Below, one piece after another: positions 702 to 64,000 of a DNA stretch of 64,000 nucleotides; positions within the stretch are counted from its first letter, which is position 1, and each line of letters begins with the position of its first letter. Where the stretch lies: the NCBI GenBank assembly GCA_964016885.1, contig OZ024740.1, positions 143,592,001-143,656,000 on the forward strand. The letters run 5' to 3'. The notes below the pieces were generated by a model that had not been told where the DNA came from, did no database searches, and worked only from the letters and a program-made list of their open reading frames with translations. Made by a program: the position numbers and the translations under genes. The stretch comes from Eledone cirrhosa. Its lineage: Eukaryota.

Positions 702-743
702 ATATATCAATGGTCAATGCAAAGCTTAACATTGAAGCAAATG
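702..743 (+). CDS. Ig-domain GPI-type surface protein, copy A, coding exon 2 (end of signal peptide and first strand: YISMVNAKLNIEANG)
   Basis: Acceptor ttttcatcttttatag, donor G|gtaatt, 42 nt, phase 1-1. It avoids the TGA that direct exon1-exon3 splicing would create and gives a VNA|K signal cleavage site. Confidence 0.75.
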
Positions 744-2127: not shown

Positions 2128-2376
2128 GAACAATTTGGTTAGGGGAAGAAATAACTCTTAAAACTCCAATCACTGCTAATACTTCGGCTATTACATGGAA
2201 AAGTGAAGGAAAGAATATTGCATGTGACAAAAGTTGCGGTGGGAATGAAGACTACAAAATTACTAGGGGAAATGGTTCATCTACCCTTTGGATAAGAAAT
2301 GTTTCTTGGCAATATCGTACATGGACAGTTATTGAAAATGATTTGGAAACTGATGACTTCACTATGGATATAAATG
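2128..2376 (+). CDS. Ig-domain protein copy A, exon 3 (V-like Ig domain)
   Basis: atttcag acceptor, G|gtaagg donor, 249 nt open, phase 1-1: TIWLGEEITLKTPITANTSAITWKSEGKNIACDKSCGGNEDYKITRGNGSSTLWIRNVSWQYRTWTVIENDLETDDFTMDIN. Ig-like motifs GEEITL, ITW, STLWIRNV. Confidence 0.85.
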
Positions 2377-4649: not shown

Positions 4650-4747
4650 TGAAGCCAACGATTCATTTTGAAATCAAACCAAATTGTGACTACAAAATAA
4701 AAACGACTTGTTCTAAACCCAAGACAAATATAACATGTCTCTACGAT
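4650..4747 (+). CDS. Ig-domain protein copy A, exon 4 (first half of domain 2)
   Basis: ttttgcag acceptor, gtaagt donor, 98 nt, phase 1-0: VKPTIHFEIKPNCDYKIKTTCSKPKTNITCLYD. Confidence 0.85.
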
Positions 4748-10031: not shown

Positions 10032-10451
10032 GTAAGCCTTGCATGTGTCATAGTTGAAATTATGGTAACTTTCCAGATTGTCTCAATAATGTTATACCTT
10101 ATGACTGTTTGAACAAGCTAAGTAACTTAAATAGAAATAAATTAAGTATTAAATGTAATAAAGTAAAAGTTTAGTCCTTGAAAATTAGTTACTGGGGAAA
10201 AATCATTTGAGCCAGTCAAAATCTCACAAAAACTTTGAAATTCACTTTTATCATTTATTTATTGTTGTCAAACTTTTCCTTGCATTGATTATGACCAAGT
10301 TACTGACACAGTTTCACTGATAAATATAAAATGAATTTAAGTTTCTTAAGTCTCAACACAAGCTCAATCAAGTCACATACCAACCAAGTACAACTCTGAA
10401 ATTAATAATGATTTCTTTAAATATTCTTTTTTATTTTACTTTCTTTCTCAG

Positions 10452-10617
10452 AAAGATCTGAAACTTACACACGAATCTGAACCTTGTAATAATCGAAGTA
10501 GTAAATTAAACCCTCCTGATGTAAAGTTAATACACCAATCAACTACACCTGGGAAAATCAAATGTGATGTCCATCTTGATAGTCTTTTACTGTTTACTGT
10601 AAATAAAGAATTTGAAT
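10452..10617 (+). CDS. Ig-domain protein copy A, exon 5 (second half of domain 2)
   Basis: Long polypyrimidine tract ending ttctcag, T|gtaagg donor, 166 nt, phase 0-1: KDLKLTHESEPCNNRSSKLNPPDVKLIHQSTTPGKIKCDVHLDSLLLFTVNKEFE. Confidence 0.85.
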
Positions 10618-11071: not shown

Positions 11072-11241
11072 GCACTAGCTCTTCAGTGAAGCCTCTTACT
11101 ACAATGACAGAGGATATTACTACAATGACACCTTTTACAATATCGTCTATTTCGGGTAATAGTGCAAAATCATGCATTTCCAGAATTTGGATGGAACTTA
11201 TTATTGGGATCATCATTACTGTTATCTGTTTAAGATATTAA
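11072..11241 (+). CDS. Ig-domain protein copy A, last coding exon (Ser/Thr stalk and GPI-like signal, stop)
   Basis: ttcttttgcag acceptor, phase 1: CTSSSVKPLTTMTEDITTMTPFTISSISGNSAKSCISRIWMELIIGIIITVICLRY*. Small-residue omega region (SGNSA), spacer, hydrophobic end, no cytoplasmic tail. Confidence 0.85.
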
Positions 11242-11654
11242 AAAGTAATAGATAGAGATGGTATGTATTATCCACTATTTTTTTGCATGAATTTGATGGG
11301 TTTTCACCCTCACAGCTTACTTTCAACTTGCTCCAACAATTTGAGATCAGCATCTCACCACTTCAGTCAAAGTCTTCCTTAGTCTTCTCTTCCACATCTT
11401 TCTTCCTTGGATTCTCTTAGTTCTTCTTGACCCAACGATCATTATGCATCAGCATCACATGTCCTTACCAGTGCAATCTTCTCTCTTGCACATTTGATTC
11501 AACTTATGCCCAGTTTTTCACTCAATTCATTTGTGCTTCATCATTCATGCATACTAACATTACACATTCTTAAAGAGCATGTTTGATTTGTTTCTCTGCA
11601 GTCTTCACACATTCTCTGTATTCACTGCCCATGTCTTACTACAATGCTGTATCA

Positions 11655-12160
11655 CACTTAAGAGACGTGCAACCAAGCAAATACCCTCCATCAGGCATCT
11701 ACCATACTCTGAATGCCTTGCTTCCCTGGGCATGGATACATTGAAGCTCCGACGTCTGGCAATTGACTTGGTAAACACCCACAAAATTATTAACCATCTG
11801 AGCACCTTTTTGATTTCCTTTTTGTCTAACACACATGGGCATGCCTACAAAGTCAGAAAACAGCACAGCTCCCATGACTTTCGGAAAATTTTTTTCATGC
11901 TCAGAGTTGCTGAAGCATGGAACAAACTCTGCATCAGTTGTTAGCTGCCGAGACACAACATGCTTTAAAACCTCCATGCTTCCTGAAATTTGCCAACACT
12001 ATACTTGATATCCCTCCTCCATACACATGCACACATATATATCATGACTCATACACTGTTCACTTTCCTGGCATTTGTACATCATTTTATGTACTATAAA
12101 TGCACCTTTGATGAATCGTAGTGCACCTGAGCACTGTACACAATAAATTCATTATTATTA
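11655..12160 (+). mobile_element. CR1-like LINE 3' fragment
   Basis: RRATKQIPSIRHLPYSECLASLGMDTLKLRRL...THGHAYKV...FFMLRVAEAWNKL, with an (att)n tail. Confidence 0.85.
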
Positions 12161-23189: not shown

Positions 23190-24045
<856 letters not shown>

Positions 24046-30235: not shown

Positions 30236-30564
30236 AATATATATATATATATATATACACACATACAGACACACTTCTTTGTCAATTTTTCAAAAAAATT
30301 AGATATACTTTCAAAAATTTAAACACAAGTCTAAATATTTCCTGCTTTTTAATTATAGAATTTTTTCATACAGTAATTACCTAAGCCTGACCTACGCCTT
30401 TATAAGATGCACAGTGATTTTGAGGGGCAAATTTTGAAAAAAAAACAAAATATATATATATATATAGAGAGAGAGAGGTGGGTAGAACACTGGTGGCTTA
30501 TATCCACAGTAGTAGAGCACTCAGTTCATGGGATGAGTTTGGTAGAAGTAGTGCCACACCATTT

Positions 30565-37619: not shown

Positions 37620-39710
37620 GCAAAGCCACTGCTTCGGCTACTACTCCTTCAGTTTAGACCTGGCTGTTTTCTGGTATGCTAAATGGACTACAGAGTTGGA
37701 GAGTCTGAGCACTCAATGACAATGTCAAAGATAAAGATAAATTCACCTCCCCCTGCCGGACGAGAATGCAAGGACTCCTCTTTATTTCAGACATGGAAGA
37801 TCAACATAATTCCGTCACCACTCCCTGTGCCCCCAACCCATCCCTTCCACCCACCAAGCAAAATCCAAAACTTCAGAGTTGGTACCATGAACATTGAAAG
37901 GTCGCTCAAATGAGGTTGTAGAGATGCTTGAACGTAAGGAAGTTGATGTTTGTTGTATTCAAGAGACTAGGAGGAGGGGTCGGTCTGCCAGATTCATTGT
38001 GGGTAAAAAACAATGCTATAAACTTTTCTGGATGTGAAATGACAACGGGCTGGGGGAAGTAGGAATTATGTTAGCAGAAAAATGGGTAGATAAGGTAATT
38101 GCCGTAAATAGAGTGAACGATAGAATAATTAAAATAAGACTAGTTCTAAATAGAACAACTGTGTTGATAATATCTGCTTATGCATCCCAATCTGGCCTAC
38201 CTGATGTTATAAAAGACAGATTCTATGAGTCGTTAATGCTCACTACCTCCCAAATAACCGACAGTGACTACATAATTATTGGTGGTGACCTTAATGGTCA
38301 TGTTGGACAACATTGTGATGGCTATGACGGGATCCATGGAGGCTATGGGTTTGGTACTAGGAATGAAGAAGGCTTCAGAATCCTGGAATTCTGTGATGCT
38401 AATAACCTAACTATCTGTAACACAAACTTCAAAAACCGAGACAATCACTTGATCACTTATAGATCAGGGGAACACACCAGTCAGATAGATTATATCCTTA
38501 CTAGAAGACGTGACAGAGTGTCTGTTGTAAACACTAAGTCCCTCCCCTGTGAAGAATGCACCTCCCAACATAGCCTAGTAGTTAGTGATCTAATACTCAG
38601 GACTAGACGTACTCGATGACAGCGGAGGACTACCTTGAGGAGAAGAACATGGAAGCTGAAGGACCCTACAGCCAGTGACAAATTTAAAAGCTTATTACTT
38701 GATGATTTTGACAGTAAGGAAGAGCAATTAGAGACGTACAATATAGAAGTACAGTAGGAATTCATGAAAGTTAACCTGCTGAAGGCGACAGACGAAATCT
38801 GTGGCTGGAGCAGACCTATAGGCAGGAGGAGAGTAACTTGGTGGTGGAACAGTAAAGTGGAGGAGACAATGAAGGCTAAAAAGCAGGCTTGGAAAGTATA
38901 GCAGGATGGGGGTAGTAGAGAACACTATCAAGTGTCCAGGAGAGAAGCTAGGAGACAAGTGTACCTTGCAAGAAGGGAAGCAGAGCATAGAACGTTCAAG
39001 CATGTTCTACAAAACGAGGACCAAAAACATGAGGTGTTCAGGATTGCAAGACAATGTGTCAAGGAAAACCGTGATATTATCGGGGAGAAGTGTGTCTGTA
39101 ATGATGATGGTGTACTTGCCCTCACTGATACTGATAAGAAGGTAGCTTGGAAGTGTCACTACGGGAGACTACTAAATGAGGAGAATAAGTGGGAAAAAGA
39201 TAGTCTGCCCCAAATCGATCCAATAGAGGGACCAGCGATGCAAGTTAAAGGTTGTATAATAAGTAAGGCAATCAAAGATATGAAGACAGGCAAGGTGGCT
39301 GGGCCTTCGGAGATAGTTGTTGAGATGTTGAAAGCATTTGGAATGATGGGACATACTATGGCCACCCGGATAATAAACCAAGTAATACAGAATGAGGTCA
39401 TATAAAAAGACTGGCGTAGCAGCATCATCGTTAACTGCTACAAGAGTAAAGGAGATGATCTAGATAGGGGAAACTATAGAGGCCCCTCCAAACCTAACAT
39501 ACACCCCAACCCACTCCCACCAACACTAACCTTTCTCTATAAAGTTATGTTGGTACCACAACATCCAGTCCAAACTAATGAGATCGTGTAGGTGTCACGA
39601 CAAAAAAGCTCCCAGTCCACTCTGTAAATGCGGTTGGTGTTAGGAAGGGCATCCAGTCGTAGAAAACCTGCCAGATAGTCCTATACAAGCGAGACATGTT
39701 CACCCGACCA
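37620..39710 (+). mobile_element. RTE LINE, 5' UTR/APE/RT start fused to the 3' UTR (internal deletion at ~39483)
   Basis: APE ORF 38068-38619. After NYRG the sequence jumps to the 3' UTR shared with 21000-21300. Confidence 0.9.
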
Positions 39711-42319: not shown

Positions 42320-45300
42320 TCAGGAGAACGGTTGTCTCTAACCGGAGATTGTAAGACGGGTGTCGGCGAAAGTCTCAATGAGGAAGCCGACATCCTGAGG
42401 ACCAGAATTCTGTCTGCAAAAACAACCACACGTATTGGATATTGGAACATAAGAACTATGTACCAACCATCCAAACTTGCACAAGTTATCGGAGAAATAG
42501 AGGCCTACACAATTAACATCCTGGGCCTCAGCGAGGTCCGCTGGACTGACTCTGGGAAGTTTGTCCATGAAAACAAGACCATCCTGTTCTCAGGCCGTCA
42601 GAACGGGACCCACCGAGATGGAGTTGCAATCATCATGGACAGGGCTGCCAGCGGTGCCCTTGAGGAGTGAACTCCTATCAACGAACGCCTAATGACAGCA
42701 AGATTCACCACATCACATGCAAAGGTCACCATAGCTCAGTGCTATGCTCCAACCAACGAACATAACGATGATGACAAGGACGCTTTCTACCAGCAACTAC
42801 AAGATGTTGTAAACAAAACCCCACGTCATGACATCCTGATCATCATGGGAGACATGAACGCACAGATCGGGGGAAGCAGGGTTGGCTTTGAACATGTCCT
42901 TGGCCCCCATGCTTATGGAAACCGCACGGACAACGGGGACAGGTTTGTCCAGTTCTGTGCCATGAACAATATGAAAATCGGCTCGTCACTATTTGACCAC
43001 AAGAACACCCACAGGTCACATGGGCTTCGAACGACCACAGGACCAAGACGCAAATAGACCACATTGCGATTGGCCCAAGTTGGAGAGCTCCTTGCCTGCA
43101 GGACGTCCGAGTCTACCGGGGCGCAGATGTCTGCAGTGACCACTATCTGTCTGTTACCAAACTTAAAATCAGACTGAGGAAGCAGAAAAAGAGAGCACTC
43201 ACTACAAGGCGTTTTGACACTACCAAGCTGAAGAACGGTGACACAGAGGCACAGTTCGAGGCTGCTTTGAGGAACAGATTTGCTGTCCTTGAGGAGTCTG
43301 CACCAGGATCGGTCAATTGGTGGGAGGAAATGAAGAAGACCATGGAAGCTGCAGGGGAAGAAATCCTGGGCTACAGGAAGTCCCTCAGAGAAGCTTGGGT
43401 CAGCGACAACACCTGGCAGCTGATTAATGAAAGGAAAACCCTACATCAGCAGAGGCATGCCACTACCCCAGAGGCCATCAAGGTATATCAGCAGTATGTT
43501 GACAAGGACAAGGAGGTGAAACGCAGCGCACAAAAGGACAAACGCATGTGGATTGAGGGTAAGGCGGGGGAGGCGGAAGCAGCTGCGGCACGCAATGACA
43601 TGCGCTCTGTGTACCAAATTGCCAAGAAAATCACCGGCAGCTCTAGAGCTAACTCAGGCCCGGTGAAAGCGAAAGATGGTACGCTGCTTTCCAAGGGTGA
43701 AGAAAAGTTAGACAGATGGGCTGAACATTTCAAGGAAGTCCTCAACCGACCGGAGCCACGTGTGCCAGCAGACACTAAGGAACCTATTAGTTTGTTGCCT
43801 ATCAATACTGATGACTTCACCGAGAAGGAAGTCCGCATGGCCATAAAAACCCTTAAGAATAACAAGTCACCAGGTATGGATGGCATTTCTGCTGAAATGC
43901 TGAAGTCAGGAGGCGAAAGCATGGTCAAGTGGATGGGCCACTTATGTAATCTTGTGTGGAACACGGGTGAAGTCCCAGCAGATTGGAGAAACGGAGCGGT
44001 TGTCTGTATCCCCAAGAAGGGCAACCTTGCCGATTGTGACAACTGGAGGGGAGTGACACTTCTCTCCATACCAGGGAAGGTCTATTGTCTGATGATCCTG
44101 AACCGCATACGTGGCATGGTAGACCGGGAACTGCGAGAACAACAGGAAGGGTTCCGACCAAAACGTTCCTGTGCAGAGCAGATCTTTACCTTACGCCGCA
44201 TCATTGAGAGGTACAACGAATTCCAGAGGCCCCTCGCCGTCAGCTTCATCGATTTCTCCAAAGCATTCGATAGCTCTCATCGGCCGTCACTCTGGAGCAC
44301 CATGCATGAGTATGGTCTGCTCCAGAAAGTCATTTCGGCAATCAAACAGATTTACGCAGACTCCAAGTGCTGCATACGGACAGAGGATGGTTACAGTGAC
44401 TGGTTTGAGGTGGTTACTGGTGTGCGTCAGGGTTGCTCGCTCTCTCCAATTCTCTTTGCCATAGCCATTGACTGGGTACTAAGAAGAGCGTCTAAAGACC
44501 AGGGTATATCTTGGGTGGGAGAGCAAAAGTTGTCTGACCTGGACTTTGCGGACGATATTGTTGGACTTGCAGAGAGCACAGCTGACCTGCAAATCATTAT
44601 GAACAATATCAATGTCGAAGCAGGAAGCTTAGGTCTCAATATCAGTGCTAAGAAGACCAAAAGCATGTTATCTGGGACACACCCATCACCAACTGGTGTT
44701 TTCATTGAACAGGGGGGGGGGGGGGAGATAGTGGACAACTTCACCTACCTAGGAAGCTCCATTGACAATGGGGGCGCCATGGACAGTGAATTGCAGTGTA
44801 GAATGGAAAAGGCTTCAGCAGCATTTAACCAGCTTGTCAAGATCTGGAAGAGCAGGAAGTTCACCCTCAAAACAAAGATGAGATTCTACAACAGCAACGT
44901 GCTGTCCACACTCTTGTACGGAAGTGAAACATGGCACCTTAAGACCAGCCAAGAGAAGAAGTTGGACGCATTCGATTCCAGGTGTCTGCAAAAGATCCTG
45001 GGGATTAAATGGAGTGACCATGTAACAAACCAGGAAGTCAGGAACCGCACCAACCAGCAGCTGGTCTCTTCTGCCATCTGCAAGCGACGCCTGGGCTGGT
45101 TTGGACACGCTTTGAGACTTCCCCCGGAGAGACTGGCGAACCAAGTACTTAAATGGAACCCACAGGGAAGCAGACGGAGAGGGCGACCCAAAATGAACTG
45201 GCGCCAGACAGTTGAAAGGGACCTGCGAGCGACAAACAGACAATGGCGGGACGCTGTGCAACTGGCTGCTGACCGAACGCGGTGGAACACTATGATTGCC

Positions 45301-45345
45301 TCATGTGTCGCAAGACGCGGGAGCTTCTGAGTCAGAGTCTGAGAG
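42320..45345 (+). mobile_element. Near full-length RTE-clade LINE (APE+RT), lightly disabled
   Basis: YWNIRTM, SEVRW, YAPT, GDMNAQ, then the 687-aa RT ORF 43267-45330 (DFSKAFD, GVRQG, FADD). One TGA at 42668 and a frameshift near 43010. Confidence 0.95.
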
Positions 45346-45569
45346 AGAGAGAGAGAGGGGGATGATTGCGACGCAAACGAGTAAGTAATCCAATTCGTTT
45401 AACTCTTTTGGCTATATAAAACTAAATATATACATACGTAAACATGTCTTATGTCCGTATTTCTTGCAGTAATGTTGACTTTCGTGCCTCTTGTAACAAG
45501 TGAACGGTTTACTTGTGTTGAATCGTATTTTCTTTCGTTTTCTTTTTATATTTTTATATCCTGGATATA

Positions 45570-48039: not shown

Positions 48040-48760
48040 CGAGATGTCATCCTCTGTTCAGTTAAGAAGGCCCCTCAGCTTTACCACTTTGCTTGGCAAG
48101 ATTATCAGGAGCCCTCCTACTTCTCCTTCGGTGACCATTTCATCCTATCTGCTACAGGGGTCTGACGGTGACACGCTCAGACCAGCTGGGTATTGATGAC
48201 GTCACCAAGATGGGAGTTGACCTGGATTTGAATGTCTGGTATCTGGATGATGCTTGTTTGGGGTGTTCTCCAGATAAGATTCATGGAACCGCAAAGACGA
48301 TTGAGGAACTGAGTTGCAGGGGCTTTCATGTCAACAGTTCCAAATGCGAGCTCTGGTCCCTCAACCACCCAGCTTCACATCAACAGACTGTTGACCTGTT
48401 TACAGAGTCCTTCCCCTCTATCACGGTTCCTCCCTCATCAGCGTGGTGCTCTCTTGGAGCCCTAATTACTGACCAAACCTTCGAGTCCATCTTTCACTCT
48501 AAGTTGGCTAATCTTGAGCAAATTTTAAAAAATCTCGAAGCTTCACCAAAGTTTTTTTATACTTATGAATTACATCAATTCCTAAATTGTTGTATTTCAT
48601 CAGAATTAGCCCCTCTTACAAAATTTCGTCAACTCTCCAATACTTTGATGACTTAATATTCAATGAGCTCAAGGGCTTGGTCAATGTCTCTCTCCAGAAT
48701 CCCACAACCAGGCTCCCTTGCCTAAACAGTTTGGAGGTCTGAGAATTGCTATCACTTGAT
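48040..48760 (+). mobile_element. CRE-clade RT fragment
   Basis: LNVWYLDDACLG, GFHVNSSKCELW, QAPLP..FGGL. Confidence 0.7.
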
Positions 48761-49329: not shown

Positions 49330-50400
49330 CTGTACATTTTGTTTGTTATAGAATCGCCATCTTACTTTCTTTGTTTGGAAACGATGGTTTATTTATAACT
49401 GCCAGAAATGGTGGAAGATTGGCATTATATGTGGACTACTATATGTGTGTACATTTTTATGTCAAATATAGGTTTCCTCGTAGTGAAGGGCTGGAGAGAG
49501 CTAACTGTGTATCTAGTCCCTCCTTGCAGATCACCATGGTTATTTTTTTGCTGAAGTGTAGTAACTTCAGAAAGCAGGTGTTGGAGGAGGTCTTACATTT
49601 CCAGCATTTTGGACCCCGAAGACGACTTTTGATGAATGTTGGATATTCATTGGTCTCTAGGAAGTGTGCGGTGTAGGGGACCTGGTCCTCTGCCTTGCTG
49701 CATTTTTTTCCAGGAATGTGTGAATTTATTCCTTATGTATCAGGTTTTAGCACCAATGAGCAAACAGGTCTCTGCAATTGGTTTTTCTGTAGAAGTTATG
49801 GATGTCACCTTCTGTTATCCTGAGTTGGTAGTCAAGTAGAGACAGGGATCCAGGGCAGTTATGGTTTTCTACGCTGAACTACATGTTATCATCCTTGTTT
49901 ATGAACATGGTAGATATTCCATTGGCCTCTTCATCAGAGAATGTGAGTAAGAGTACGTCATCTATGTATCTAGTGAAGAAGGTACAGGAGCGACAGGTGT
50001 TGAACGTTTGATGTTCTAGCTGGTCATGTAGGTGATGGCTAATAGGCCTGAAAGATTGGATCCCATGGGTAGACTTGTTGTTTGTTTGTAGGTGTGGTGA
50101 TGGAAGGTGAAGTATGTGTTTTCTACAATACTGATAGGAGGTGGTGAGGCCAAAGTTGTATAGGTCGGAAGAAATGATGCAATCAGTCACAAGGTTGACC
50201 ACTGGGTGAGTGGGTACTGATGTGTAGGAGACAACATTGAGGCTAAAGGTGTATCTGTTAAGTTTAAGTTGACCTGTATTTGTTAGGAAGTTGTCTTTGC
50301 CTACAGATATCAGCCTAGACTCTGTTAATGTGGTCTTCAATTTGGGTTGATGTTGTCTATTATTTCCGAAATAATCCATTGTTGCTGTGGTATTCAAATA
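49330..50400 (-). mobile_element. Degenerate Penelope-like RT
   Basis: SLNVVSYTSVP, FFTRYIDDVLLL in ORF 49879-50487. Confidence 0.7.
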
Positions 50401-50649
50401 CCAGCTTGTTGTAGATGTCACAAGTGACAATGCAAAATTCTTTCCCTTAATACACAAATTAAAGTACAAAGCAACGTATATATACAAAAATTATGTGTCA
50501 GTGTATAAACAGAAACTAAGTACATTTCATAATTTCTTTGTTTGTTTTTTGTTTTTTTTATTTTCAACATATAGATACAATAGAAAATAACTTTCTTCCT
50601 GTTTCCACCATTCATCTATGGTTCTTGTGATGTTTTGTGTTCTTCAGAT

Positions 50650-52614: not shown

Positions 52615-53700
52615 GTGAGCTATGAGGCCCTCTTACCAGCACTTTCCCTTCCACCCACACACGTCAGCCACCCACCCCTGATGCCGCTTGGTGCCCCACA
52701 CCCCATCCCCCATCCCTCCAAGCTGACACCTGCTGCACTTGCAGCACCACTAACAAACGAAAGAGGGGCCGGAACTGTTTGGGGTGCGGCTGCTTCCACC
52801 ACCTCACCTGTGTTGGCTTGACTCGTCGAACTTCCAATGCCCTCGCAGCGTGGAGGTGCAGGAGCTGCCCTTCCCCACGACTTCCCAGCCACGGCCGTCT
52901 GGCACACCACCACATGGGACATGGAGCTTGCCTGACGCCCGAGCCTCGCTGGTCAACTTCGCTCGGCTCAGGCGGTTCCGGAAGATCACACTCAGGATCC
53001 CGAGAGCGGCACAGGTGCCGGTAGCTGATGCCCTCGCTTCCTCAATTGAGAGCGCCCTGGACTCCAATCGAGCCAGTGACTGGGAGCGGCTGTTCTATTT
53101 CACCCCACTTGCCTTCGGCCTCCCCAGCTCTGGCGCTGAATGGGGCGGCCGGTCAACAGCAGCCTTCGTCAAGGCAATATCAAACACCCTGGGCCACCCA
53201 CTGATCTCAGACCCATACCCCCACCCGACTCCCACTTGCTCCTTGTGGCTTCTGATGCAGACATCAGGTCCTTCCCAGCTAGCAGCTGTGGAAGTGAGGA
53301 TGGTCTCCGACCAGGCCACCTCAAGGAGTTCACATCCCCCCTCTCCGCTGAGGCCGGGTGCCGCCTTCTGAGTGCAATTGTGGCGCTCACCAATAGGCTC
53401 ATCCATGGTGCCCTGGACTCTTACGCCCGAGGCCTCTTTTTTGGGGCCAGCCTCACCGCTCTCAGGAAGAAAAAGGGTGGCATACGCCCCATTGCTGTGG
53501 GCAATGTCTTCCGGAGGCTGGCTGCCAAGGTGATCTGCAAGTCCGTAACACACAAACTGGGTGTCGGCATGTCCGGTGGCTGTGAGGGGGCCGCTCATGC
53601 AACCAGGCAGTTCTTCAACAGCTGCCGCTTGGAACCGGCATCCAGGGACTCCAGGCACCTCATTGTCAAGCTTGACATGAGGAGAATCTTTGCCGTTGAA
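52615..53700 (+). mobile_element. CRE-clade N-terminal/RT-start fragment
   Basis: GC-rich. Cys/His finger (FHHLTCVGL..WRCRSC), RIPRAAQ, DGLRPGHL, ASLTALRKKKGGIRPIAVGNVFRRL, LGVG..GGCE. Confidence 0.85.
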
Positions 53701-54489
53701 TGATGATTTTTTGAGTTGTACAGGTTTTACTTGTAAAGTATACTTTGTTTGAAGTTTTACATGATAAAAATATAGGTTGATGCTGAAGTAGTTGTGTTTT
53801 TTGTTGTTTTCTTAATGTTATATATACATATCACAATGTCCACAATAGCTTATACAGCAAACTATTTCTCACATAATCCATATCCATGGGTTCACTTCTC
53901 TGAAGCACAAGCCTCATCAGGGGGTTTTGTAAAAGACCAGCAGTTACCCATGCATGCAAGTCTACCCTCTATATGATACCAATGTTGTCAAAGGCAGAGG
54001 CTGGTTACAGCTTGACACTAGTGTTGTCATTTTTTCCAGCTAAGTTAACTGGGGCAACATAAAATAAAATGCCTTGTTTGAGGACACTATGCTGTCTGGT
54101 TCAGGAATTGAACTAATCCACATTCTTCACAAGTTTTAGAAGCGTGTGATAACAAGTCAACTAAACACGGCAAATCTTACTGCCGAATTGTTGATTTGAG
54201 AAATGTAATGTATTCAGTTCATTTTCATGTCGTCTCTACATGTTTCTTGGTCCATTTACCTATCAGTATTTAAACTGTTATTAATCTGTTATATGTTTGT
54301 TTAACTTAGAATCTAATCTTTTCAATATTATCGATAAATCTGTCGGACCCTCAAAAATAATCTTCTCGCATTTAAACTCCTATTATTTGTTATATGCTCG
54401 TTTAACTTTTCAATAATAAAGTTGAATCTGTCAGACCTTTATAAAAATAATCTTCTCGTAAACTTTCCCATTTCTCCCCCCCCCCTTCT

Positions 54490-57136
54490 TTGACAATGTC
54501 AAAGGTAAAGATAAATTCACCTCCTGTTGTCGGGCGAGAATGCAAGAACTCCTCTTTATTTCAGGCACGGATGGCCAAAATAATCCCATCTCCCACACCC
54601 CTTCCTGTGCCTCCAACCTATCCCTTCCACCCACCCAACGAAATCCAAAACTTCAGAGTTGGTACCATGAATGTAGGCACTTTGAAAGTTTGCTCTAACG
54701 AGGTTGTAGAGATGCTTGAACGTAAGGAAGTTGATGTTTGTTGTGTTCAAGGACTAGATTCATTGTGGGTAAAAAACGATGCTATAAACTTTTCTGGGTG
54801 GGGTGGGGTGGTGTAGGAATTATGTTAGCAGAAAAATGGGTAGATAAGGTAATTGCCGTAAATAGAGTGAACGACAGAATAATTAAAATAAGACTAGTTC
54901 TAAATAGAAGTACTGTGACAATAATATCTGCTTATGCATCCCAATCTGGCCTACCTGACGTTATAAAAGACAGATTCTATGAGTCGCTAATGCTCACTAC
55001 CTCCCAAATAACCGACAGTGACTACATAATTATTGCTGGTGACCTAAATGGTCATGTTGGACAACATTGTGACGGTTATGACGGGATCCATGGAGGCTAT
55101 GGGTTTGGTACTAGAAATGAGGACGGCTTCAGAATCCTGGAATTCTGTGACGCTAATAACCTAACTATCTGTAACACAAACTTCAAAAAATGAGACAATC
55201 ACTTGATCACTTATAGATCAGGGGAACACACCAGTCAGATAGATTATATCCTTACTAGAAGACGTGACAGAGTGTCTGTTGTAAATACTAAATCCCTCCC
55301 CCGTGAAGAATGCACCTCCCAAGTGCACCGCCTCATAGTTAGCAACCTCATACCCAAGACTAGACATACTCGACAACAGAGGAGAAGAATATGGAAGTTG
55401 AAGGACCCCACAGCCTGTAACAAATTTAAAAGTATATTACTTGATGCTTTTGACAGTAAGAAAGAGCAATTAGAGACGTACAGCATCTGGAATGGTGGGA
55501 CACACTATGGTCACCTGGATAGTAAACCAAGTAATACAGAATGGAATCATACCAAATGACTGGCGTAGCAGCATCATCATTAACTGCTACAAGGGTAAAG
55601 GAGATGCTCTAGATAGGGGAAATTATAGAGGCATTAAGTTAGTTGACCAGGTCATGAAGGTCACAGAAAGAGTTATAGTGCAACTAATCACAGAGCGAAT
55701 TGATCTAGATGAAATGCAGTTTGGGTTTGTGTCAGGTAAAAGTACCACATACTCTTTTCCTTGTATGGCAACTACAGGAGAAGTACCTAGATAAAAGTAA
55801 ACCCCTCTATTTAGCTTTTATTGACTTGGAGAAAGCCTTTGACAGAGTCTCCCCACCCCCCTCCATTATCTGGTGGACTCTTAGAAAACTTGGTGTAGAT
55901 GAATGGCTTGTGATAGCTATACAAGCCATGTATAGAGGAACAGTCAGCAACGTTAGAATTAACAATAAATATAGTGAAGAATTTAGCATCAAAGTTGGTG
56001 TTCATCAAGGCTCTGTCTTTAGCCCCCTCTTATTTATTATTGCCCTTCAAGCTATAACAGAGGAGTTCAAGACCGGCTGCCCGTGGGAACTTCTATACGC
56101 AGATGATCTAACTCTCATAGCTGAATCGATGGCTGAACTAGAGAAGAAATTCCAAACATGGAAGCATGGCCTAGAATCAAAAGGCCTTAAAGTTAACTTG
56201 TCTAAGACTAAAGTTCTAGTATGTAGAAAGGAAAATAGGGCACAGGTGCCCTCTGGGAAATGGCCATGCTCAGTGTGTAGGAAAGGAGAAGGCAGAAATT
56301 TCAAATGTCCCAAATGCAAACTATGGGTACATAAAAGATGTAGTGGGATCACAGGTAAACTATCTAAGAAGGTAGATTTTATATGTGGTCGATGCTCAGG
56401 TTCAATAAGTAGCAAGTGCCCACAGGATACTAGCTCCTTCTATTGCCCAGATGGTTCTATAGAAATTGTGGACACTTTCCGTTGCCTGGGTGACAAAATC
56501 AGCAGTGGTGGAGGGTGCTCTGAAAGTACAGTAGCCAGAGTCAGAACGGGATGGAAAAAGTTCAGAGAGCTTATACCATTATTGGCCACTAAAGGTTTCT
56601 CTCTAAAAATGAAAGGTAGATTGTAAGATGCCTGTATACAAACAGCAATGTCTAATAGTAATATACGCGAATGGCAAAAGATAAATGAACTGGACCGAGA
56701 TCTTTGTGCATAGTGAAACCTTCAGTCAGTAGGCACCGCTTAACCAACACCTTGCCTATGTGCATAGTGAAACCTACAGTCAGTAGGCACCGCTTAACCA
56801 AATATACACCCCATCCTACTACCCCCGACTCCACCCTCCCACTCCTGCCAACACTACCCTTTCTCTGTAAAGTTATGTTGGTACCACAACATCCACTCCA
56901 AAATAAATGAGGTTGTGTAGGTGTCATGATAAAAAAACACAGTCCACGCTGTAATGTGGCCGTGTAGGTAACACAGTAAAAAACTCCCAGTCCACACTGT
57001 AAATGTGGTTGGTGTTAGGAAGGGCATCCAGCCGTAGCAAACCTGCCAGCCAGTCCTATACGAGCAAGACATGGTCACCCGACCGTCTAAACCCATGCTA
57101 GCGTGGAAGATAGACGTTAAACAATGATGATGATGA
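54490..57136 (+). mobile_element. RTE LINE with two internal deletions
   Basis: APE 54738-55480, RT 55709-56626 (DLEKAFD, GVHQGS, YADD, CxxC...HKRC finger), 3' UTR with (tga)n. High identity to 37720-38740. Confidence 0.92.
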
Positions 57137-57530
57137 CATTTCTTGTATTCAAAGACAAACAGAAGAGTAAAGACTTCTGGTTATGAACATCAGAAAGAGT
57201 AAAGAACTTGGAGAAATTAATGGATGTTCATTGATTTCATCTGTCCAGTAAAATCGACTGCAATAATATACAAACTGTGTAAAATATAAACTTCAGGTAT
57301 CAACATTTACATATGACTCATTTTTATTTGAGTATTGACAATAAATCATCATCATCATTTAATGTCTATTTTCCATGCTAACATGGGTTAGACGAGTTGT
57401 CCCATTTGAAGCAAGTCAGGTAAGATGTTACAGTGTTTCTCTCATTGATAATTCGACAATCACAAAAATAATGTTTAAAAAAATCTTGTATTTTGAACTA
57501 AAATATTTTGCTTTTTCATTTTTTCAGATA

Positions 57531-57570
57531 ATGAAGATTTTACCACTACTCTATTTGCTGGCAATGACTT
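57531..57570 (+). CDS. Ig-domain protein copy B, coding exon 1 (ATG and signal peptide MKILPLLYLLAMT)
   Basis: Strong acceptor ctttttcattttttcag at 57527, ATG at 57531, hydrophobic core, T|gtaagt donor, phase 1. Confidence 0.8.
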
Positions 57571-57762: not shown

Positions 57763-58915
57763 TTAATGCAGCTTTCTTCCACTGGCATTTGTGCATCCAA
57801 ACGGAAGACGGGTAAATTCGTATATTCGGCCACAGGCTTCGAATGCAGTCAACTTAAAGTCGGAAGATTTGATGGGTATTTGGTGATAAGCTGCCTTTAG
57901 ATCTATTTTCGAGAAATATTTGTGTTTTGAAATTTTGTTGAGTAGGTCTTCGATTATGGCATTAGTGGTGTGTAACGATTTATAGTGCCTGAGTAGTCTA
58001 TGACAAGCCTTTTTTTGTTTTCTTGATCTATTACGAAACACTGCGCTCTCCATGGGCTTCTGCTCTGTTGAATTATTCCAGCTTTAAGCATTCTGTCGAT
58101 TTCCGTTTTAATGAATTGCTGATCTTTATTGTATTTTCGAGGAGGTATAGATAATGGTTTTAATTTTGTAGTATCGATTCCAGGCATTAAATCATATTCT
58201 TCACAATTCAGAGTTTGCATTGACATACATGTCGTGACTGCTCTCATGTCCCCTGCATATTTTATTGTTAAAGACTTATGCCTTTTAAGTATATCAAGAG
58301 CCATAACTACTGGAGCAAAGAGTTTGTCAACCACCATTAGATCGATGTGGTATTCTCGGCCCTCCCATTCTAATGTTGTTTCAAATGTACCTCGTATTAT
58401 GAGTTTACTGTTGTCGGCTAAAATTACACTCTTATTCTTAGTTTTCTTGAATTTACTTTGCCATTTCGACAAGTGGTTCATGTCAATGAAAGACTTGCCT
58501 GTGTCAAGTAAACCTTCTGTTTTATGTGAATTGACATAAATTGTTAAAAAGTTTGTATTATGATTCACGGAAGCAAGTTTATAGCAGGCAGCAATATTAC
58601 TGCCATCATTGGAGCCCTCGTTATTATTCAAGACTGCTGCGTGTTTTATCTTCTTTAGTACCTTCTTATTTTTAACAAAACATACTGTTGCCCAGTGGCC
58701 TTTCTTGTGGCAGAAATTGCAAGTTGAATTTTTTGCAGGGCACTCTGATTTTTGGTGATATGTACTACCACACCAGAAACATTTTAATGAAGAAGCAGCG
58801 AATACGGGTTGTGACGGCGGTTGTATTGTTGTTGTTGACAGATTTTGTGCGTCTTCTATTGCCAGTTCTAATGTGAGAGCGGTTTGGAATGTTTTATCTA
58901 GATTTTTGAAACTTC
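57763..58915 (-). mobile_element. Ty3/Gypsy gag-protease-RT fragment inside intron 1 of the Ig gene
   Basis: LLDTG protease, SPWRAQ, RLVIDY, FSKIDLKAAYHQIPI, EFTRLPFG. No LTRs seen. Confidence 0.9.
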
Positions 58916-59309
58916 TACCTGTATCTTGAATACATCACTAAACTCATTACCTGCTCTCATTTTACTGACAGCACCTTTGTACATAGCTTGCATGGCTCTC
59001 ATAACCCACTCATCTACACCCAGCTTCCTTAAGGACCACCAGATAACAGATCAATGTATAATTCTCTCTACAAGTATTAAATGTGTTATTATTCTAACAA
59101 AAGTAGAAATCCAGTTTTTCTTATCTGTAATTCAGCAACAAGCCTTTTAAGACCATTTTCCTTGCTATATTAAGGGTTATCCCTTCATGGCATCCTTTTT
59201 GAGGCAATATTTTACAGCCACATTCCCTTCCTGTTGAAACCTCTTTTAGTCACCTCTTACAACACACATGGTTATGTAAAATCTGAAAATATATTTTCAT
59301 CTTTTATAG

Positions 59310-59351
59310 ATATATCAATGGTCAATGCAGAGCTTAACATTGAAGCAAATG
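59310..59351 (+). CDS. Ig-domain protein copy B, exon 2 (YISMVNAELNIEANG)
   Basis: Duplicate of 702-743 with one K>E change. Confidence 0.75.
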
Positions 59352-60731
59352 GTAATTGTATTATAAAAATCTTTGATTTTAAAACCAGATGCTATCTTTT
59401 CTACTCTGCTTTCTGCTTCTTTCTCATAGTTAATAATCTTTAGTCACTAAATATATTTCCTCCTTTGAATGGGCAAAATTTCATCTTCAGAGCCCAAAAG
59501 ACAATAATGATTATAAATATGATTGTGATTATAATATTGATTGTAGTAATACAAACTGTTATCTTAAAATATCAATTTGACAAAACTGTAGAAAGTAACT
59601 AAAGACTATTTAGTAAAAACAAATGTATATATATATATATCAGCAGCAGCAGCAGCACTTAACATCTATTTTCCCTACTTTTGAGGATTGAATAGGTCAT
59701 TATAGAATAAGTCAGTACTTAATTGAAGCCAATAGCCTCTCAACAAGTCAGGTATCACATCTCACTTACATACATTCCTGAAATGTACATGTTGTAACAG
59801 ATGCATTTTATCATGGCACCAGCTCTAGAGGGGTTTTTGTACCCTTGATAAAACTGAAGAGGCTTCACAACTCTTTGTTGGCCCAGTTTTCTATGACTGA
59901 ATACCCTTCCTATCACCAACCACCTTATAGAATGTACTGGCTGGTTTTCTCATGTTGCCAACACTAGAGAGGTTATCATGCCCTTAACACAACTGAAGCG
60001 TCCTCTTGACCCTTTTTTGGTGTGGTTTTTCCAGCTGGACACCTCTCCTATCACTAACCACCTTACAAAGTGTACTGACTGCATCTTTTGTGGCACCAGC
60101 ACTAGGGCAGTAGTCACGGTGTAGTCCTACAGATGGAAGCTCTTCCTAACACTAACCACTTTGATGGGGGAGGTAAGAAGGATGATGTATATATGTGCAC
60201 ACACATACATATTACATATATGAATACATATTCAGAATTCTGTACATTTTGGGAGACACTTGTGATCTGTACATAAGTTGGTATAACATGTGAGTAATGT
60301 AGCATGTCATCAGGGTCATGGTCCTTGAAAGACTTTCAGTTGTCTCCAATGGTAACATGACGCAAGATGATTAAAACTTAAGGATCTGCTGCAATATCTT
60401 CCGTCTTCTTCGTCATTATGTGAGTTAATTTAACACCTGCTTTATCACTATTGAAGATTGAAGACAATGAAACGCATTTAGTCTGAATCCTCACCCTCAA
60501 CTTTGCAATCTTTAAAGACCCTACTAGGAGGACAAACCTTCTGATGACATCACTGTCAAGGTCTGATGAACATGCAAGCTTCTCCACCACATCATAGTAG
60601 ATCTCTCATTCAATTTCTCATTAGTTCTGATAATCTTTATTATATATTTTTACTTTTAATTTCCATTATAAATATATCAAAGCTGATAAAAACTTAAACT
60701 TAAATCAATAAATTTAATATATCTATTTCAG

Positions 60732-60980
60732 GAACAATTTGGTTAGGGGAAGAAATAACTCTTAAAACTCCAATCAGCGCTAATACTGCGGCTATTACAT
60801 GGAAAAGTGAAGGAAAGAATATTGCATGTGACAAAAGTTGCGGTGGGAATGAAGACTACAAAATTACTAGGGGAAATGGTTTATCTACCCTTTGGATAAG
60901 AAATGTTTCTTGGCATTATCGTACATGGACAGTTATTGAAAATGATTTGGAAACTAATGACTTCACTATGGATATAAATG
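60732..60980 (+). CDS. Ig-domain protein copy B, exon 3 (V-like Ig domain)
   Basis: Duplicate of 2128-2376, open, splice sites intact, 5 amino-acid differences. Confidence 0.85.
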
Positions 60981-63178
60981 GTAAGGAAATAATTTCTGAT
61001 GATAATAATCATGGAGCAAGTATTTTATGGTGTTAAATCAAAGTCAACATTTGTATTTTAATGATTTATTTTCTATCTTGAATTGTAATATTTCTGTAAT
61101 ATATAATAATGTGGGATAGTTAACTAAATGAACTGGTTAGATTAACCCCTATGTCCTTGTTCTAATATCTTGACCACATTTCCAATAATTAGGTGTCTAT
61201 ATTACCACTTAATTGTTATATGGTTGACAATCTTTCGGTATCTTCTAATATCTTAATCACATTCCCAGTGGTCACTTATCTAATGTTATATAACCCCTAT
61301 AAAATAAGCTAATTTGTCAGACTGCCATATTTGTGTTAAAAATGTTTGTTTTTTGAAATTCAGATGTTATGTTGATTTTATTTTTTTTTTTTTTTTATAT
61401 AGAATTTTAAATAATAACATTCTTATTCCTTTTCTATCTCTAAGAATGATTCCACATTCCTTAGTACAGATGTATTGGAAGGTTTTATCTCTGAATGGTT
61501 TAGAAATCATATAAACACAAATTTAGCAGTATGTCTTATTTTATATAGTTTTCACAGAATTTTTAATCTCATAACTTGTTTGGTTTTAATATTGCAGTGA
61601 ACTTTGTATATTTTCTGTTAGCCATGTGATGTTATAGACTATTTCCAACTCTCCTTATTTTCTGATAACTTTTTCTTGGAGTTGAAAACTGTGAAAACAA
61701 CCACACATTAAGAAGACCCGCTTAACATTTGCAGAGATAGGAGAAATCAATCTAAATATACCTACAGACTAACAAAGAACAGTCTGTCTGAGGAACAATT
61801 TGTCCTCTATATATGATTATATACACTTACAGACTGATGAGGATTCTTTGTTACTAAAATATACATAAAACAACTTTATACTGATATTATTCTTGTTTTT
61901 TTTCTTTCCTTTTTTCAATTCTTGAAATGACAAAGAAATTGGTCTTATTTTTCATTGATCAGAACCTTTTTCCAAATTCTCACTGCAAACAAATCTATTG
62001 TAACCAAATCTTGACAATACAGTGTGGGAATAAAGAATCTGTAAATTAAAAAAATAGCTTGTGGTAGCAATAATAATAAAGGCTTACCTTGCTTCCAGAA
62101 TTCACTTAGAGGAATTTTTAATAGCAGCTCTTTCATGCTAAACAGCTTAAAACACCACACTTTTCTGTGAGTCTCACACTCACATACACACGCAACCATA
62201 CTTTGAAAAAAATTCTATGTTGAAAGAGGATTGGAGTTCTGTTCCTTCACTAACCTGGCACTATTTCCCTCTCATACTTCTGGCTCTTAACCCACAATAC
62301 TACATACATTTTAAAAGACGGTATCATAGAAGCAACTAATTCATTATCGCTGGCAGGGCCTATGAGAGGGGGTCCAACTAGTACTTTGTTCCGGGGGCCC
62401 AAGACCTAAGAAGGCCCCACAGCAACCATGCAACATCCATTTTGAGAATTTGCCTGCTTCAGAGCAAAATTTCTCCTGGAAGCCCTGATCGCAGGCACAG
62501 TTTTTTCTTTGGCAATTTCAGTATTGAAAAGTCTTCTAGTAGATGTTTCTCAAATGAGATGGAGGTGGGTGCAAATATTCTAAAATGCTGCTATTCGCAC
62601 CAGAAATCAACATTCTCTGTTAACTGTTCTCTCTCATTTTCTGCATCATCATCATTGAACAGCCATTCTCCCTGGTAGCAAGTGTTGGACAGGTTATTAC
62701 AGAATGAGTCAGTGCTCAAGTAGAGCTACTGACCTCTCAGATGGGTCAGAGGCCCACATCGTGCTTACATATATTTCCATACTCTATAGAGTGCACTTTA
62801 TTGTGGCGCCAACATTAGAAAGGTTGTCATGACTTTGACACTGCTGAAGAAGCCTCTCAACCCTTTATTTGACCAGTTTTCTATGACTGAATACCTTTCC
62901 TATCACCAACCACCTTGCAAAATGTACTGAGTTTGTTTAATTAAGTCACCAACACTAGAGAGGTTGTACCTTTGACGTAACGGAAGAATTCTTTTGACTC
63001 TTTTTAACACGGTTTCTATGACAGGATTCTCTTCCTATTGCCAACCAAGTCACAGGTTGTACTGGGCGCATTTTTTGTAGCACCAACATTAAGGAGGTTA
63101 TTGGTAATTGAGTTAACTGAAGATCCCTCTCTACTCTATGGGAGGGGATGTTAAAAAGGATGGTAAGTATAATGCATG

Positions 63179-63209
<31 letters not shown>

Positions 63210-63246
63210 TTGTATGTATAATATGTACACATGATATATTTTGCAG

Positions 63247-63344
63247 TGAAGCCAACGATTCATTTTGAAATCAAACCAAATTGTGACTACAAAATAAAAA
63301 CGACTTGTTCTAAACCCAAGGCAGATATAAAATGTCTCTACGGT
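63247..63344 (+). CDS. Ig-domain protein copy B, exon 4
   Basis: Duplicate of 4650-4747: VKPTIHFEIKPNCDYKIKTTCSKPKADIKCLYG, 4 amino-acid differences. Confidence 0.85.
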
Positions 63345-64000
63345 GTAAGTAAATGGAATTGGGTTTTTACCTGTTTCTCTTCCTATCATTAACCTATTCA
63401 ATTATGTGCTAGGGAGTGGATTGCTTAATTTTATTTAAGGTAACTGGAGTGAGTAGGGTGTATCTTGCTTAGAGACACAACACAATTACTCTAGTACAGT
63501 ATTTGTAATTCTAAGTCGGGACATATCAGTTCAAAATGAGATTAACAAAAAAAGATTTGACTATGGTATTTTAAGAAATGAACTGAGCATCAAATAACAT
63601 TGTGACATTTACAATGTGGAACTTGCTTGATTAAAAGTTTTTTATCAGTCCAGTAATGAAGCAAAAGAATCATCATCCATCATATGTAATATTTTCCAGT
63701 ATTTTCATGTGTAAGTACAACAGTGGCACTGATCCATGATCATAACAATCTATGAGCTGACTGAGAGCAATGTTAGACACTTTTGTCTATGTTGATCAAT
63801 GTTCACTTGATGCCTAAAAAAACACATTTTTGAAGCTGTGCACTCCATCAGATTTTAAAAATGGAATAATTCCATAGAAAATGAGATTTACAATTGTGAT
63901 TCATAAAGAGCGGGTTTTCCATTTTGTTTACAATATCATATAAGACATGGGAGGACTTTCGGGTTAAGTTAGAACCTGACATTTGATCAGTAAATGAAAT

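What the first reader, a model, noticed from the sequence alone, without database searches (positions are those of the whole stretch)
59310..63344. Divergence between the two gene copies is concentrated in exons and is all amino-acid changing
Across 389 comparable coding nt I count 11 substitutions (~2.8%) giving 10 replacements: K>E (exon 2); T>S, S>A, S>L, Q>H, D>N (exon 3); T>A, N>D, T>K, D>G (exon 4). No purely silent codon change. The ~5 kb of flanking intron shows only about 18-20 substitutions by eye (~0.4%). Exons several-fold more divergent than their introns is the reverse of the usual pattern. It points to positive or balancing selection, or exon-focused gene conversion, as in immune receptors and allorecognition loci (for example the tandem Ig-domain Alr genes of Hydractinia). 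Best candidate here for an undescribed system: a diversifying Ig surface-protein array.
Basis: partly seen in the sequence, partly recalled or inferred. Interest (0 to 1): 0.93.

Follow-up and report, generated by a model that had tools for sequence, protein, structure and literature searches.

The report
Fast-evolving cephalopod Ig surface-protein array
Nine near-identical neighbouring copies of an uncharacterised cephalopod cell-surface protein gene differ mainly in the outward-facing part of the protein, a mark of selection for diversity that suggests conflict with a binding partner such as a pathogen.

Summary
Confirmed: 11 substitutions in 389 coding nt against 18 in 5,003 non-coding nt (p=2.5e-6); all 10 changed codons are replacements. 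The two copies are neighbours in a nine-copy tandem array of intact genes. They encode a 254-268 aa protein: signal peptide, V-type plus C-type Ig domains (model of a paralogue, pLDDT 89), Thr-rich stalk, GPI-like tail, no signalling tail. At least one copy is spliced and expressed. Four intact intronless retrocopies form a second array that also shows dN/dS>1 (2.9, p=0.025); parent versus retrocopy gives 1.7-2.3 in the Ig domains and 0.1-0.2 in signal peptide and tail. Within the nine copies alone dN/dS is 2.8 but not significant (p=0.095), silent exon sites are also raised, and conversion is evident. Copies fall into two types: derived type A gained three N-glycan sites and lost a splice acceptor that removes the stalk. 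Named relatives are all uncharacterised octopus, argonaut and cuttlefish proteins; I found no paper on them. The exon-over-intron pattern is known (opsins, CEACAMs); the family seems undescribed. Its architecture is not that of Alr. Likeliest driver is pathogen conflict (about 0.45); tissue and ligand are unknown.

The parts
702..743 (+). Copy c6 (type A), coding exon 2: end of signal peptide, start of Ig domain 1
   Evidence: AG/GT ends; joint 742>2127 in run X4; junction absent in intronless copies
2128..2376 (+). Copy c6 coding exon 3: V-type Ig domain D1; carries type-A sequons N45-T-S (S codon at 2184) and N76-G-S (S codon at 2277)
   Evidence: Pfam I-set E=0.0058, below cut-off; joints in X4
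4650..4747 (+). Copy c6 coding exon 4: first part of C-type Ig domain D2; type-A sequon N137-I-T (4727-4735)
   Evidence: joint 2375>4649
10452..10617 (+). Copy c6 coding exon 5: rest of D2; most variable exon (12 of 166 sites variable among nine copies)
   Evidence: loose end matching the exon-4 end and joints in X4
11072..11241 (+). Copy c6 coding exon 6: Thr/Ser-rich stalk with a 7-aa repeat (28, 35 or 42 aa by copy), N-S-A candidate GPI site, hydrophobic tail, stop
   Evidence: joint 10617>11072
11154..11155 (+). Splice switch: GG in type-A copies (c2, c3, c6, c8), AG in type-B copies (c1, c4, c5, c7, c9), where it is an alternative acceptor that skips the stalk in frame (226-aa form)
   Evidence: joint 10617>11156 at depth 480 against 559 for the full form in X4
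11242..12078 (+). Copy c6 putative 3' UTR, carried by the retrocopies at only about 8% difference
45364..45380 (+). 3' end of an inferred non-coding first exon of copy c7, followed by GTAAGT; the same leader precedes the ATG in the retrocopies
   Evidence: 12-nt exact match plus donor; inferred, no RNA laid here
57531..57570 (+). Copy c7 (type B) coding exon 1: signal peptide
   Evidence: same N-terminus in retrocopies
59310..59351 (+). Copy c7 coding exon 2 (K21E at 59330)
60732..60980 (+). Copy c7 coding exon 3, D1; lacks sequons 45 and 76 (A47, L78)
63247..63344 (+). Copy c7 coding exon 4; lacks sequon 137 (D-I-K); exons 5-6 lie beyond the window end

Best explanation
An expressed, membrane-anchored two-Ig-domain surface protein of a coleoid-cephalopod family has been amplified recently into nine tandem 48-61 kb units. 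Shown: copies exchange sequence, their non-coding DNA stays within about 0.5%, and amino-acid changes accumulate in the two Ig domains but hardly in signal peptide or anchor signal; the same holds in a second, intronless array. Inferred: selection favours and keeps distinct ectodomain versions against homogenising gene conversion. The main split sets a derived type A (six N-glycan sites, stalk always kept) against an ancestral-like type B (three or four sites, stalk optional). With no cytoplasmic tail the protein cannot signal alone, so it is a ligand, adhesion molecule or decoy. I think the likeliest driver is a pathogen or parasite that binds this protein, with glycans and stalk length masking or moving the binding face. 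Odds: selection on the ectodomain about 0.85; pathogen as the driver about 0.45.
For: Nine copies: 29 replacements in 429 Ig-domain N sites (6.8%) against 91 variable of 10,819 intron sites (0.84%), p=6.5e-16; M2a vs M1a p=4e-5. Retro array: D1 38 of 276 sites variable against 246 of 5,981 flank sites, p=4e-10; ectodomain omega 2.9, p=0.025; M2a p=3e-5. Parent vs retrocopy, four pairs: ectodomain omega 1.7-2.3 (p=0.009, 0.03, 0.07, 0.09); signal peptide 0.24 and tail 0.09-0.16 in the two pairs tested, not individually significant. All 13 full copies have open frames. The A/B split marks 8 of 19 informative exon sites but 4 of 52 intron sites (p=0.002). Retrocopies carry the B letter at 6 of 6 polarisable diagnostic sites (2 more show neither). 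Three or more sequon gains arose in 42 and 49 of 20,000 simulations of 16 changes. Precedents: opsin exons under conversion (PMC3924837, passages); CEACAMs as pathogen receptors and decoys (PMC7042247, passages); glycan gains on primate CD4 D1 (PMC8020793, abstract).
Against: No ligand, tissue or infection data. In the nine-copy array omega over the ectodomain is not significantly above 1 (M0 2.76, p=0.095; 29 N: 3 S gives p=0.02-0.09 by kappa). Silent exon sites are also above intron level (6 of 161, p=0.003; p=0.05-0.10 without the splice-switch site and the two-hit codons), and parent-retrocopy dS (about 0.2) exceeds the 3' UTR distance (0.08). Site models are inflated by recombination, which is present. 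Intron divergence does not rise next to exons (8 of 927 sites within 100 nt). The sequon test is post hoc; its undirected form gives 3-11% for three toggles. Variable D1 positions overlap between the two arrays no more than chance (4 shared, p=0.49).
Confidence: 0.45

Rival explanations
1. Reproductive recognition protein: a gamete or reproductive-tract surface Ig protein diversifying under sexual selection or conflict.
For: Three separate intronless insertions (one array, two broken copies with unrelated flanks) imply transcription in the germ line or early embryo (inference). Duplicated, positively selected fertilization proteins are known in abalone (PMC9022041, search listing only). A testis-specific CEACAM paralogue escapes conversion in its Ig exons (PMC7042247, abstract).
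Against: Germ-line transcription is permissive and does not show gamete function. The tissue of run X4 is not given. Relatives in Octopus form large, structurally varied sets with 1-4 D1-like domains, which looks more like a surface-receptor repertoire than one sperm-egg pair (inference).
Confidence: 0.22
2. Self/non-self or cell-identity code: variants bind their own kind or a dedicated receptor, as Alr proteins, nectins or protocadherins do, marking an individual's skin or a cell type.
For: The best structural matches include adhesion and immune-regulatory V+C proteins (Rst, Neph1, nectin-3, CD200R, butyrophilins; Z 13-14, rmsd 3.1-4.0, 168-178 aligned). Co-inherited blocks of exon variants fit distinct specificities. 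Alr proteins also lack the core disulfide in many domains (PMC9546547, passages).
Against: No Fn3-like domain, ITAM or ITIM, and only about 4 residues after the hydrophobic stretch. Variation is among paralogues only about 7% or less apart in the ectodomain; allelic polymorphism was not measured. A shared fold shows no function.
Confidence: 0.18
3. No adaptive cause: relaxed constraint plus patchy gene conversion or a raised exon mutation rate makes exons look older than introns.
For: Silent exon sites are 3-4 times above intron level; M0 in the nine-copy array is not significant; dS exceeds UTR distance between parent and retrocopy.
Against: Retro-array silent sites (pS 0.003-0.027) are not above the flanks (0.015-0.028) while D1 pN is 0.055-0.13. 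Omega exceeds 1 between parent and retrocopy, which at about 73% coding identity are unlikely to convert each other. No GC bias (9 weak-to-strong, 8 strong-to-weak) and only 6 of 35 coding variants are CpG-type. Signal peptide and tail are conserved and no full copy has a stop or frameshift.
Confidence: 0.11
4. Assembly artefact: base errors, or two haplotypes joined in tandem, create the apparent paralogue differences.
For: Blocks c1/c5 and c2/c6 are mostly under 0.2% apart over about 110 kb, and c4 is closest to c9, as expected if c1-c4 and c5-c9 were two haplotypes or a very recent higher-order duplication.
Against: Types A and B occur in both halves; 8 of 11 differences recur in several copies; an RNA contig carries c9's private letters; the retro array on another contig shows the same pattern. 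A join would change the copy number, not the exon excess.
Confidence: 0.04

Closest known systems
Uncharacterised coleoid Ig-like proteins (Octopus bimaculoides LOC106868859, LOC106876057/58; O. sinensis LOC115210431, LOC115225115; Argonauta hians GAB1602944.1, GAB1602345.1; Sepia pharaonis CAE1289077.1)
   Same: True homologues: E down to 1e-37, conserved W, C-x3-C and W in D1; several have the same D1+D2+hydrophobic-tail layout.
   Different: About 21-34% identity; Octopus has a larger, separate expansion with 1-4 D1-like domains; cuttlefish members have Cys in the B and F strands, octopod members do not. None has a name or function in the sources.
Mammalian CEACAM/PSG family
   Same: Tandem Ig surface genes with gene conversion and selection on the N-domain face; conversion seen in introns but not in Ig exons for CEACAM32; receptor/decoy logic (PMC7042247, abstract and passages).
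   Different: No sequence evidence of orthology; no paired ITAM/ITIM forms in this genome; no CEACAM row among the 50 shown in either PDB fold list (inconclusive).
Human red/green opsin pair (selection under gene conversion)
   Same: Introns homogenised while exon differences persist (PMC3924837, passages).
   Different: There the age is known from orthologues; here whether the exon types are older than the introns is not shown, and nine copies with mosaics are involved.
Hydractinia Alr family
   Same: Clustered, sequence-divergent Ig genes with an N-terminal V-set domain often lacking the core disulfide (PMC9546547, passages).
   Different: Alr proteins have I-set domains, an Fn3-like region, a transmembrane helix and tails often bearing ITAM/ITIM, and are allele-polymorphic; this protein has two Ig domains, a mucin-like stalk and no tail.
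B7/butyrophilin/CD200R/nectin and CD2/CD58/CD48 V+C ectodomains
   Same: Same two-domain fold (Z 11-14; CD58 11.4, CD48 11.0); CD2 is a faint sequence hit (E=0.036, 39 residues).
   Different: 8-16% identity and many tied matches: fold-level likeness only.

Membership tests
Immunoglobulin superfamily (V-type + C-type ectodomain) | Two beta-sandwich domains with V and C topology | tested here: met
   AlphaFold2 model of retrocopy r1 ectodomain, pLDDT 89.2, pTM 0.79; Foldseek E 6e-9; Z 14.0, rmsd 4.0, 178 aligned. The window's own spliced protein was not folded; its D1 exon is 54% identical to r1.
Immunoglobulin superfamily (V-type + C-type ectodomain) | Core C-strand tryptophan in D1 | tested here: met
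   W51 invariant in 19 of 19 aligned relatives; lies in the third strand of the model (strand letters are my assignment).
Canonical V-set/I-set domain | B-F strand disulfide in D1 (feature recalled) | tested here: not met
   No Cys in strands 36-41 or 92-97; a C60-x3-C64 pair is conserved instead. Cuttlefish relatives P0026 and P0047 have Cys at both places.
Canonical V-set/I-set domain | Pfam match above gathering score | tested here: not met
   I-set 17.1 bits, cut-off 23.7; none for P0001 or P0004.
Hydractinia Alr | Fn3-like extracellular spacer after the Ig domains | tested here: not met
   Two Ig domains fill the modelled ectodomain; only a 28-42 aa Thr/Ser stalk follows.
Hydractinia Alr | Cytoplasmic tail, often with ITAM/ITIM | tested here: not met
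   4 residues after the best hydrophobic 17-mer in P0001, no YxxL/I. The paper notes three Alr tails under 14 aa, so this is typical of Alr rather than absolute.
Hydractinia Alr | Allele-specific trans homophilic binding | not testable with these tools
   Needs a binding assay.
Hydractinia Alr | Tens to hundreds of alleles in the wild | not testable with these tools
   At most two samples of one study were available.
CEACAM, CD2/CD58, B7/BTN/CD200R or nectin families | Sequence homology to a family member | tested here: inconclusive
   4 PDB sequences at E<=1, best myotilin 0.023 and CD2 0.036; structural identity 7-17%.
GPI-anchored proteins | Small-residue omega site, spacer and terminal hydrophobic stretch (feature recalled) | tested here: inconclusive
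   N228-S-A, 26 residues from the end, hydropathy peak 3.3, tail nearly invariant; judged by eye, no predictor or assay. A short transmembrane helix is possible, and several relatives have clear ones.
Molluscan FREPs | C-terminal fibrinogen domain (PMC11999971, passages) | tested here: not met
   The frame ends 55 residues after D2; no Pfam family on exon 6.
Processed retrocopies (C2 paralogues) | All coding introns missing, with mRNA leader and trailer | tested here: met
   Continuous match over residues 1-254; leader matches the non-coding exon end; 3' UTR 92% identical.
Processed retrocopies (C2 paralogues) | Poly(A) remnant and target-site duplication | not tested
   Not searched formally; no poly(A) run in the 900 nt printed after r1.

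The most novel reading that the evidence does not exclude
An undescribed cephalopod recognition system: a coleoid-specific Ig family, expanded separately in different octopod lineages and here in two arrays (one intron-bearing, one retroposed), whose variants are kept as linked packages that switch glycan shield and stalk length together. It would be a diversifying immune or self/non-self surface repertoire in a class for which I found none described.
Probability: 0.25. Interest if true: 0.85.

Novelty: new variant of a known kind. Interest (0 to 1): 0.62.

Why it matters
Cephalopod gene expansions have been described mainly for neural and structural families. A 2025 review of invertebrate IgSF never mentions cephalopods (PMC11999971, 0 hits for cephalopod, octopus or squid), and a major cephalopod genome paper never uses the word immunoglobulin in its main text (PMC9068888). 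This family gives concrete, expressed, positively selected candidates for pathogen recognition, gamete recognition or self-marking, with named orthologues in laboratory octopus species, so the question can be tested with existing tissue RNA data. The locus is also a clean natural experiment on selection against gene conversion, with a retrocopy array as an internal control, and includes a 'silent' change that is really a splice switch.

Tried and rejected
Word-based homologue searches with exon 3 (0 of 14 candidates) and with P0001 (0 of 182) found nothing; only the full HMM scan did. The first fold on 7 sequences was unusable (pLDDT 37). A homodimer prediction gave no verdict (score 0.01, alignment not used) and is not used as evidence. 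No listed run is on record as RNA; X4 is judged RNA from its GT-AG joints. The viral fold search gave only generic Ig matches. Own-genome searches with P0006, P0013 and P0031 found no further members beyond the 9+4+2 copies, apart from one stop-ridden weak hit on C10; these are lower bounds. GC-biased conversion and CpG hypermutation were rejected as the cause. A rise of intron divergence beside exons was not found. A-to-I editing as the source of X4's A>G letters was rejected because they match c9's genomic letters. Conversion from the retrocopies as donors was rejected (about 73% identity). Contig depths could not settle whether nine copies lie on one haplotype. My first skip-isoform translation was off by one base and was corrected. 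P0029 among the 29 HMM hits was dropped as unrelated. Earlier scan findings: three look-ups returned nothing. Literature searches for the family listed no paper on it; I did not open supplements, and Supplementary Table 4 of PMC9068888 lists unnamed clade-specific arrays that might include it; subscription papers are not searched.
Full report
1. Observation. The window starts and ends in two copies of one gene: 1-5403 matches 58609-64000 at 99.3%. The whole units differ by 0.55%, so the exons are the outliers.

2. Anatomy. The own genome holds nine copies on contig C1 (143.31-143.77 Mb), 48-61 kb apart and all on one strand; the window holds c6 and the first half of c7. Each has six coding exons with GT-AG ends and an open frame of 254-268 aa: a 20-aa signal peptide (by eye), D1, D2, a Thr/Ser-rich stalk of 28, 35 or 42 aa built on a 7-aa repeat, then N-S-A, a short spacer and a hydrophobic tail ending the protein. 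A non-coding first exon ending at window 45380 is inferred from the retrocopy leaders. Contig C2 holds four intact intronless paralogues in 7.5-kb tandem units (about 51% identical to c6, 81-86% of the first to the others) and two broken intronless copies elsewhere. They confirm the exon model independently.

3. Expression. Three of the four listed runs were laid on window 600-11400. X4 shows GT-AG joints 742>2127, 2375>4649 and 10617>11072 at depth about 500, while unique intron bins are near 10; X1 and X2 show none of these joints. Its exon 2-4 contig carries c9's private letters (R56, L58, V59). So a c9-type transcript is expressed; c6 and c7 are not individually shown to be, and the tissue is not given. 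A fourth joint, 10617>11156 (depth 480 against 559), lands just after position 11154, which is G in c2, c3, c6, c8 and A in c1, c4, c5, c7, c9. The A creates an AG acceptor and an in-frame 226-aa form without the stalk. One contig supports this joint and the tool could not exclude letters between its sides.

4. Identity. Pfam gives only a sub-threshold I-set hit. An HMM scan of 1.84 billion proteins gave 29 hits: 20 are tied to named cephalopod records (Octopus bimaculoides, O. sinensis, O. vulgaris, Argonauta hians, Sepia pharaonis; all uncharacterised), 1 is unnamed, 1 is unrelated and 7 were not looked up. Folding the r1 ectodomain with 43 sequences gave pLDDT 89 and matches to V+C two-Ig proteins (butyrophilins, Rst/Neph1, CD200R, PD-L1, nectins; Z 13-14, 8-16% identity, many tied). 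D1 lacks the B-F cysteines that cuttlefish relatives keep. In a D1 tree of 75 domains the C1 and retro genes form one clade (100/99) apart from the large Octopus expansion (92 columns, deeper forks weak). The host is therefore probably an octopod (inference).

5. Selection. Among nine copies, exons 3-5 have 29 variable of 513 sites against 91 of 10,819 in introns. Ig replacements are 6.8% per N site against 0.84% (p=6.5e-16), but silent sites are also raised (6 of 161, p=0.003). My own codon-model code gives M0 omega 2.76 (p=0.095) and M2a vs M1a p=4e-5, the latter inflated by recombination (minimum 16 events). The retro array is cleaner: D1 pN 0.055-0.13, pS 0.009-0.026, flanks 0.015-0.028; ectodomain omega 2.9 (p=0.025), full length 4.7 (p=5e-4, stalk alignment uncertain). 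Parent against retrocopy gives omega 1.7-2.3 in four pairs (two at p<0.05), while signal peptide and tail are at 0.09-0.24 and the 3' UTR differs by 8%. The pairs share history and are not independent. Together the three time scales support selection on the ectodomain.

6. Two types. Introns are close to star-like (0.25-0.4% for most pairs), whereas exons 2-5 separate type A (c2, c3, c6, c8; 0-0.4% apart) from the rest (2.3-3.4% from A). The A/B pattern marks 8 of 19 informative exon sites across four exons but 4 of 52 intron sites (p=0.002). Retrocopies have the B letter at 6 of 6 polarisable sites, so A is derived. A has sequons at 27, 45, 76, 85, 137 and 157; B copies have three or four. 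Four replacements (A47S, L78S, D137N, K139T) build the three extra sites; c9 shares the first. Three gains arise in about 0.2% of directed simulations but 3-11% of undirected ones, and the test was chosen after seeing the data. N45 and N76 lie in loops I assign as BC and DE, at the membrane-distal end of D1 (inference from the strand list). Type A also lost the stalk-skipping acceptor. Both changes would thicken the glycan coat; occupancy is not shown. Sequons also differ among the four retrocopies.

7. How it most likely works. Shown: tandem amplification, exchange among copies, expression and splicing of at least one copy, excess replacement in the Ig domains, two linked types. Inferred: a GPI- or short-helix-anchored, non-signalling surface protein whose outer face is under diversifying selection, with conversion erasing non-coding differences. 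I put pathogen conflict first (0.45) by analogy with CEACAM receptors and decoys (PMC7042247, abstract and passages) and CD4 glycan gains (PMC8020793, abstract); then gamete recognition (0.22), self or cell-identity code (0.18), non-adaptive (0.11), artefact (0.04). Whether the exon types are older than the introns or a recent burst is open: raised silent sites favour older, the flat intron profile beside exons does not.

8. Copy-number caveat. c1/c5 and c2/c6 are near-identical blocks. This is a recent higher-order duplication or two haplotypes joined; both types occur in both halves, so the conclusion stands either way.

9. Comparison and novelty. It works like known diversifying tandem Ig families and shows the opsin-type signature (PMC3924837, passages). 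It fails the Alr architecture tests (PMC9546547, passages) and shows no sequence membership in CEACAM, CD2 or B7 families. Five literature searches, one by six LOC identifiers, listed no paper on the family; supplements and subscription journals were not seen. Verdict: a real, ordinary kind of evolutionary signal on an apparently undescribed cephalopod Ig family, with an unusual glycan-and-stalk switch and a parallel retrogene array. New variant of a known kind; interest 0.62.

Noticed in passing
G000:C2:173850267-173873604 (L069-L071): A retrocopy was itself tandem-duplicated four times in 7.5-kb units; all four frames are intact and diverge fastest in D1 and the stalk. Whether they are transcribed is unknown.
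   Followed up: partly
G000:C2:357995987 (L073) and C2:72291924 (L075): Two broken intronless copies with stops and unrelated flanks; they group together away from the intact genes, perhaps from an older parent state.
   Followed up: partly
window 57071-57530 and equivalent upstream regions: The 1.5 kb upstream of coding exon 1 is more variable among copies (33 of 1,338 sites, 2.5%) than the introns between coding exons (0.7-1.2%), mostly separating c1, c5, c7 from the rest; possibly regulatory divergence.
   Followed up: no
window 42997-45330: 777-aa LINE-like endonuclease/reverse-transcriptase frame ending about 35 nt before the inferred first exon end; the gene may start in or beside this element's 3' end (element type recalled, not searched).
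   Followed up: no
window 57954-58934 (minus): LTR-retrotransposon-like gag/protease/RT fragment inside coding intron 1; the part from 58609 on also lies at window 1-326 (type recalled from motifs).
   Followed up: no
window 30801-32814: Degenerate tandem array of a 50-nt unit, about 38 copies, present in the spacers of the array units.
   Followed up: no
window 23208-23617: 84-nt repeat, 4.9 copies; the 28-codon period suggests a decayed C2H2 zinc-finger array on the minus strand (recalled, not tested).
   Followed up: no
window 12757-14981, 20289-20954, 38038-39405, 54735-56626, 48135-48656, 52754-53703, 29630-30289, 49879-50490: Several broken non-LTR retroelement-like frames fill the spacer; no second host gene was recognised in the unit.
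   Followed up: no
P0025: A database protein joins a C2H2 zinc-finger array to a D1-like Ig domain of this family; probably a gene-model fusion.
   Followed up: no
P0005, P0009, P0016, P0027, P0031 and cluster mates: Many Octopus family members map to one small contig per species (21.3 Mb in O. sinensis, 12.0 Mb in O. bimaculoides, 34.6 Mb in O. vulgaris), suggesting a larger cluster there that was not found in this genome.
   Followed up: partly
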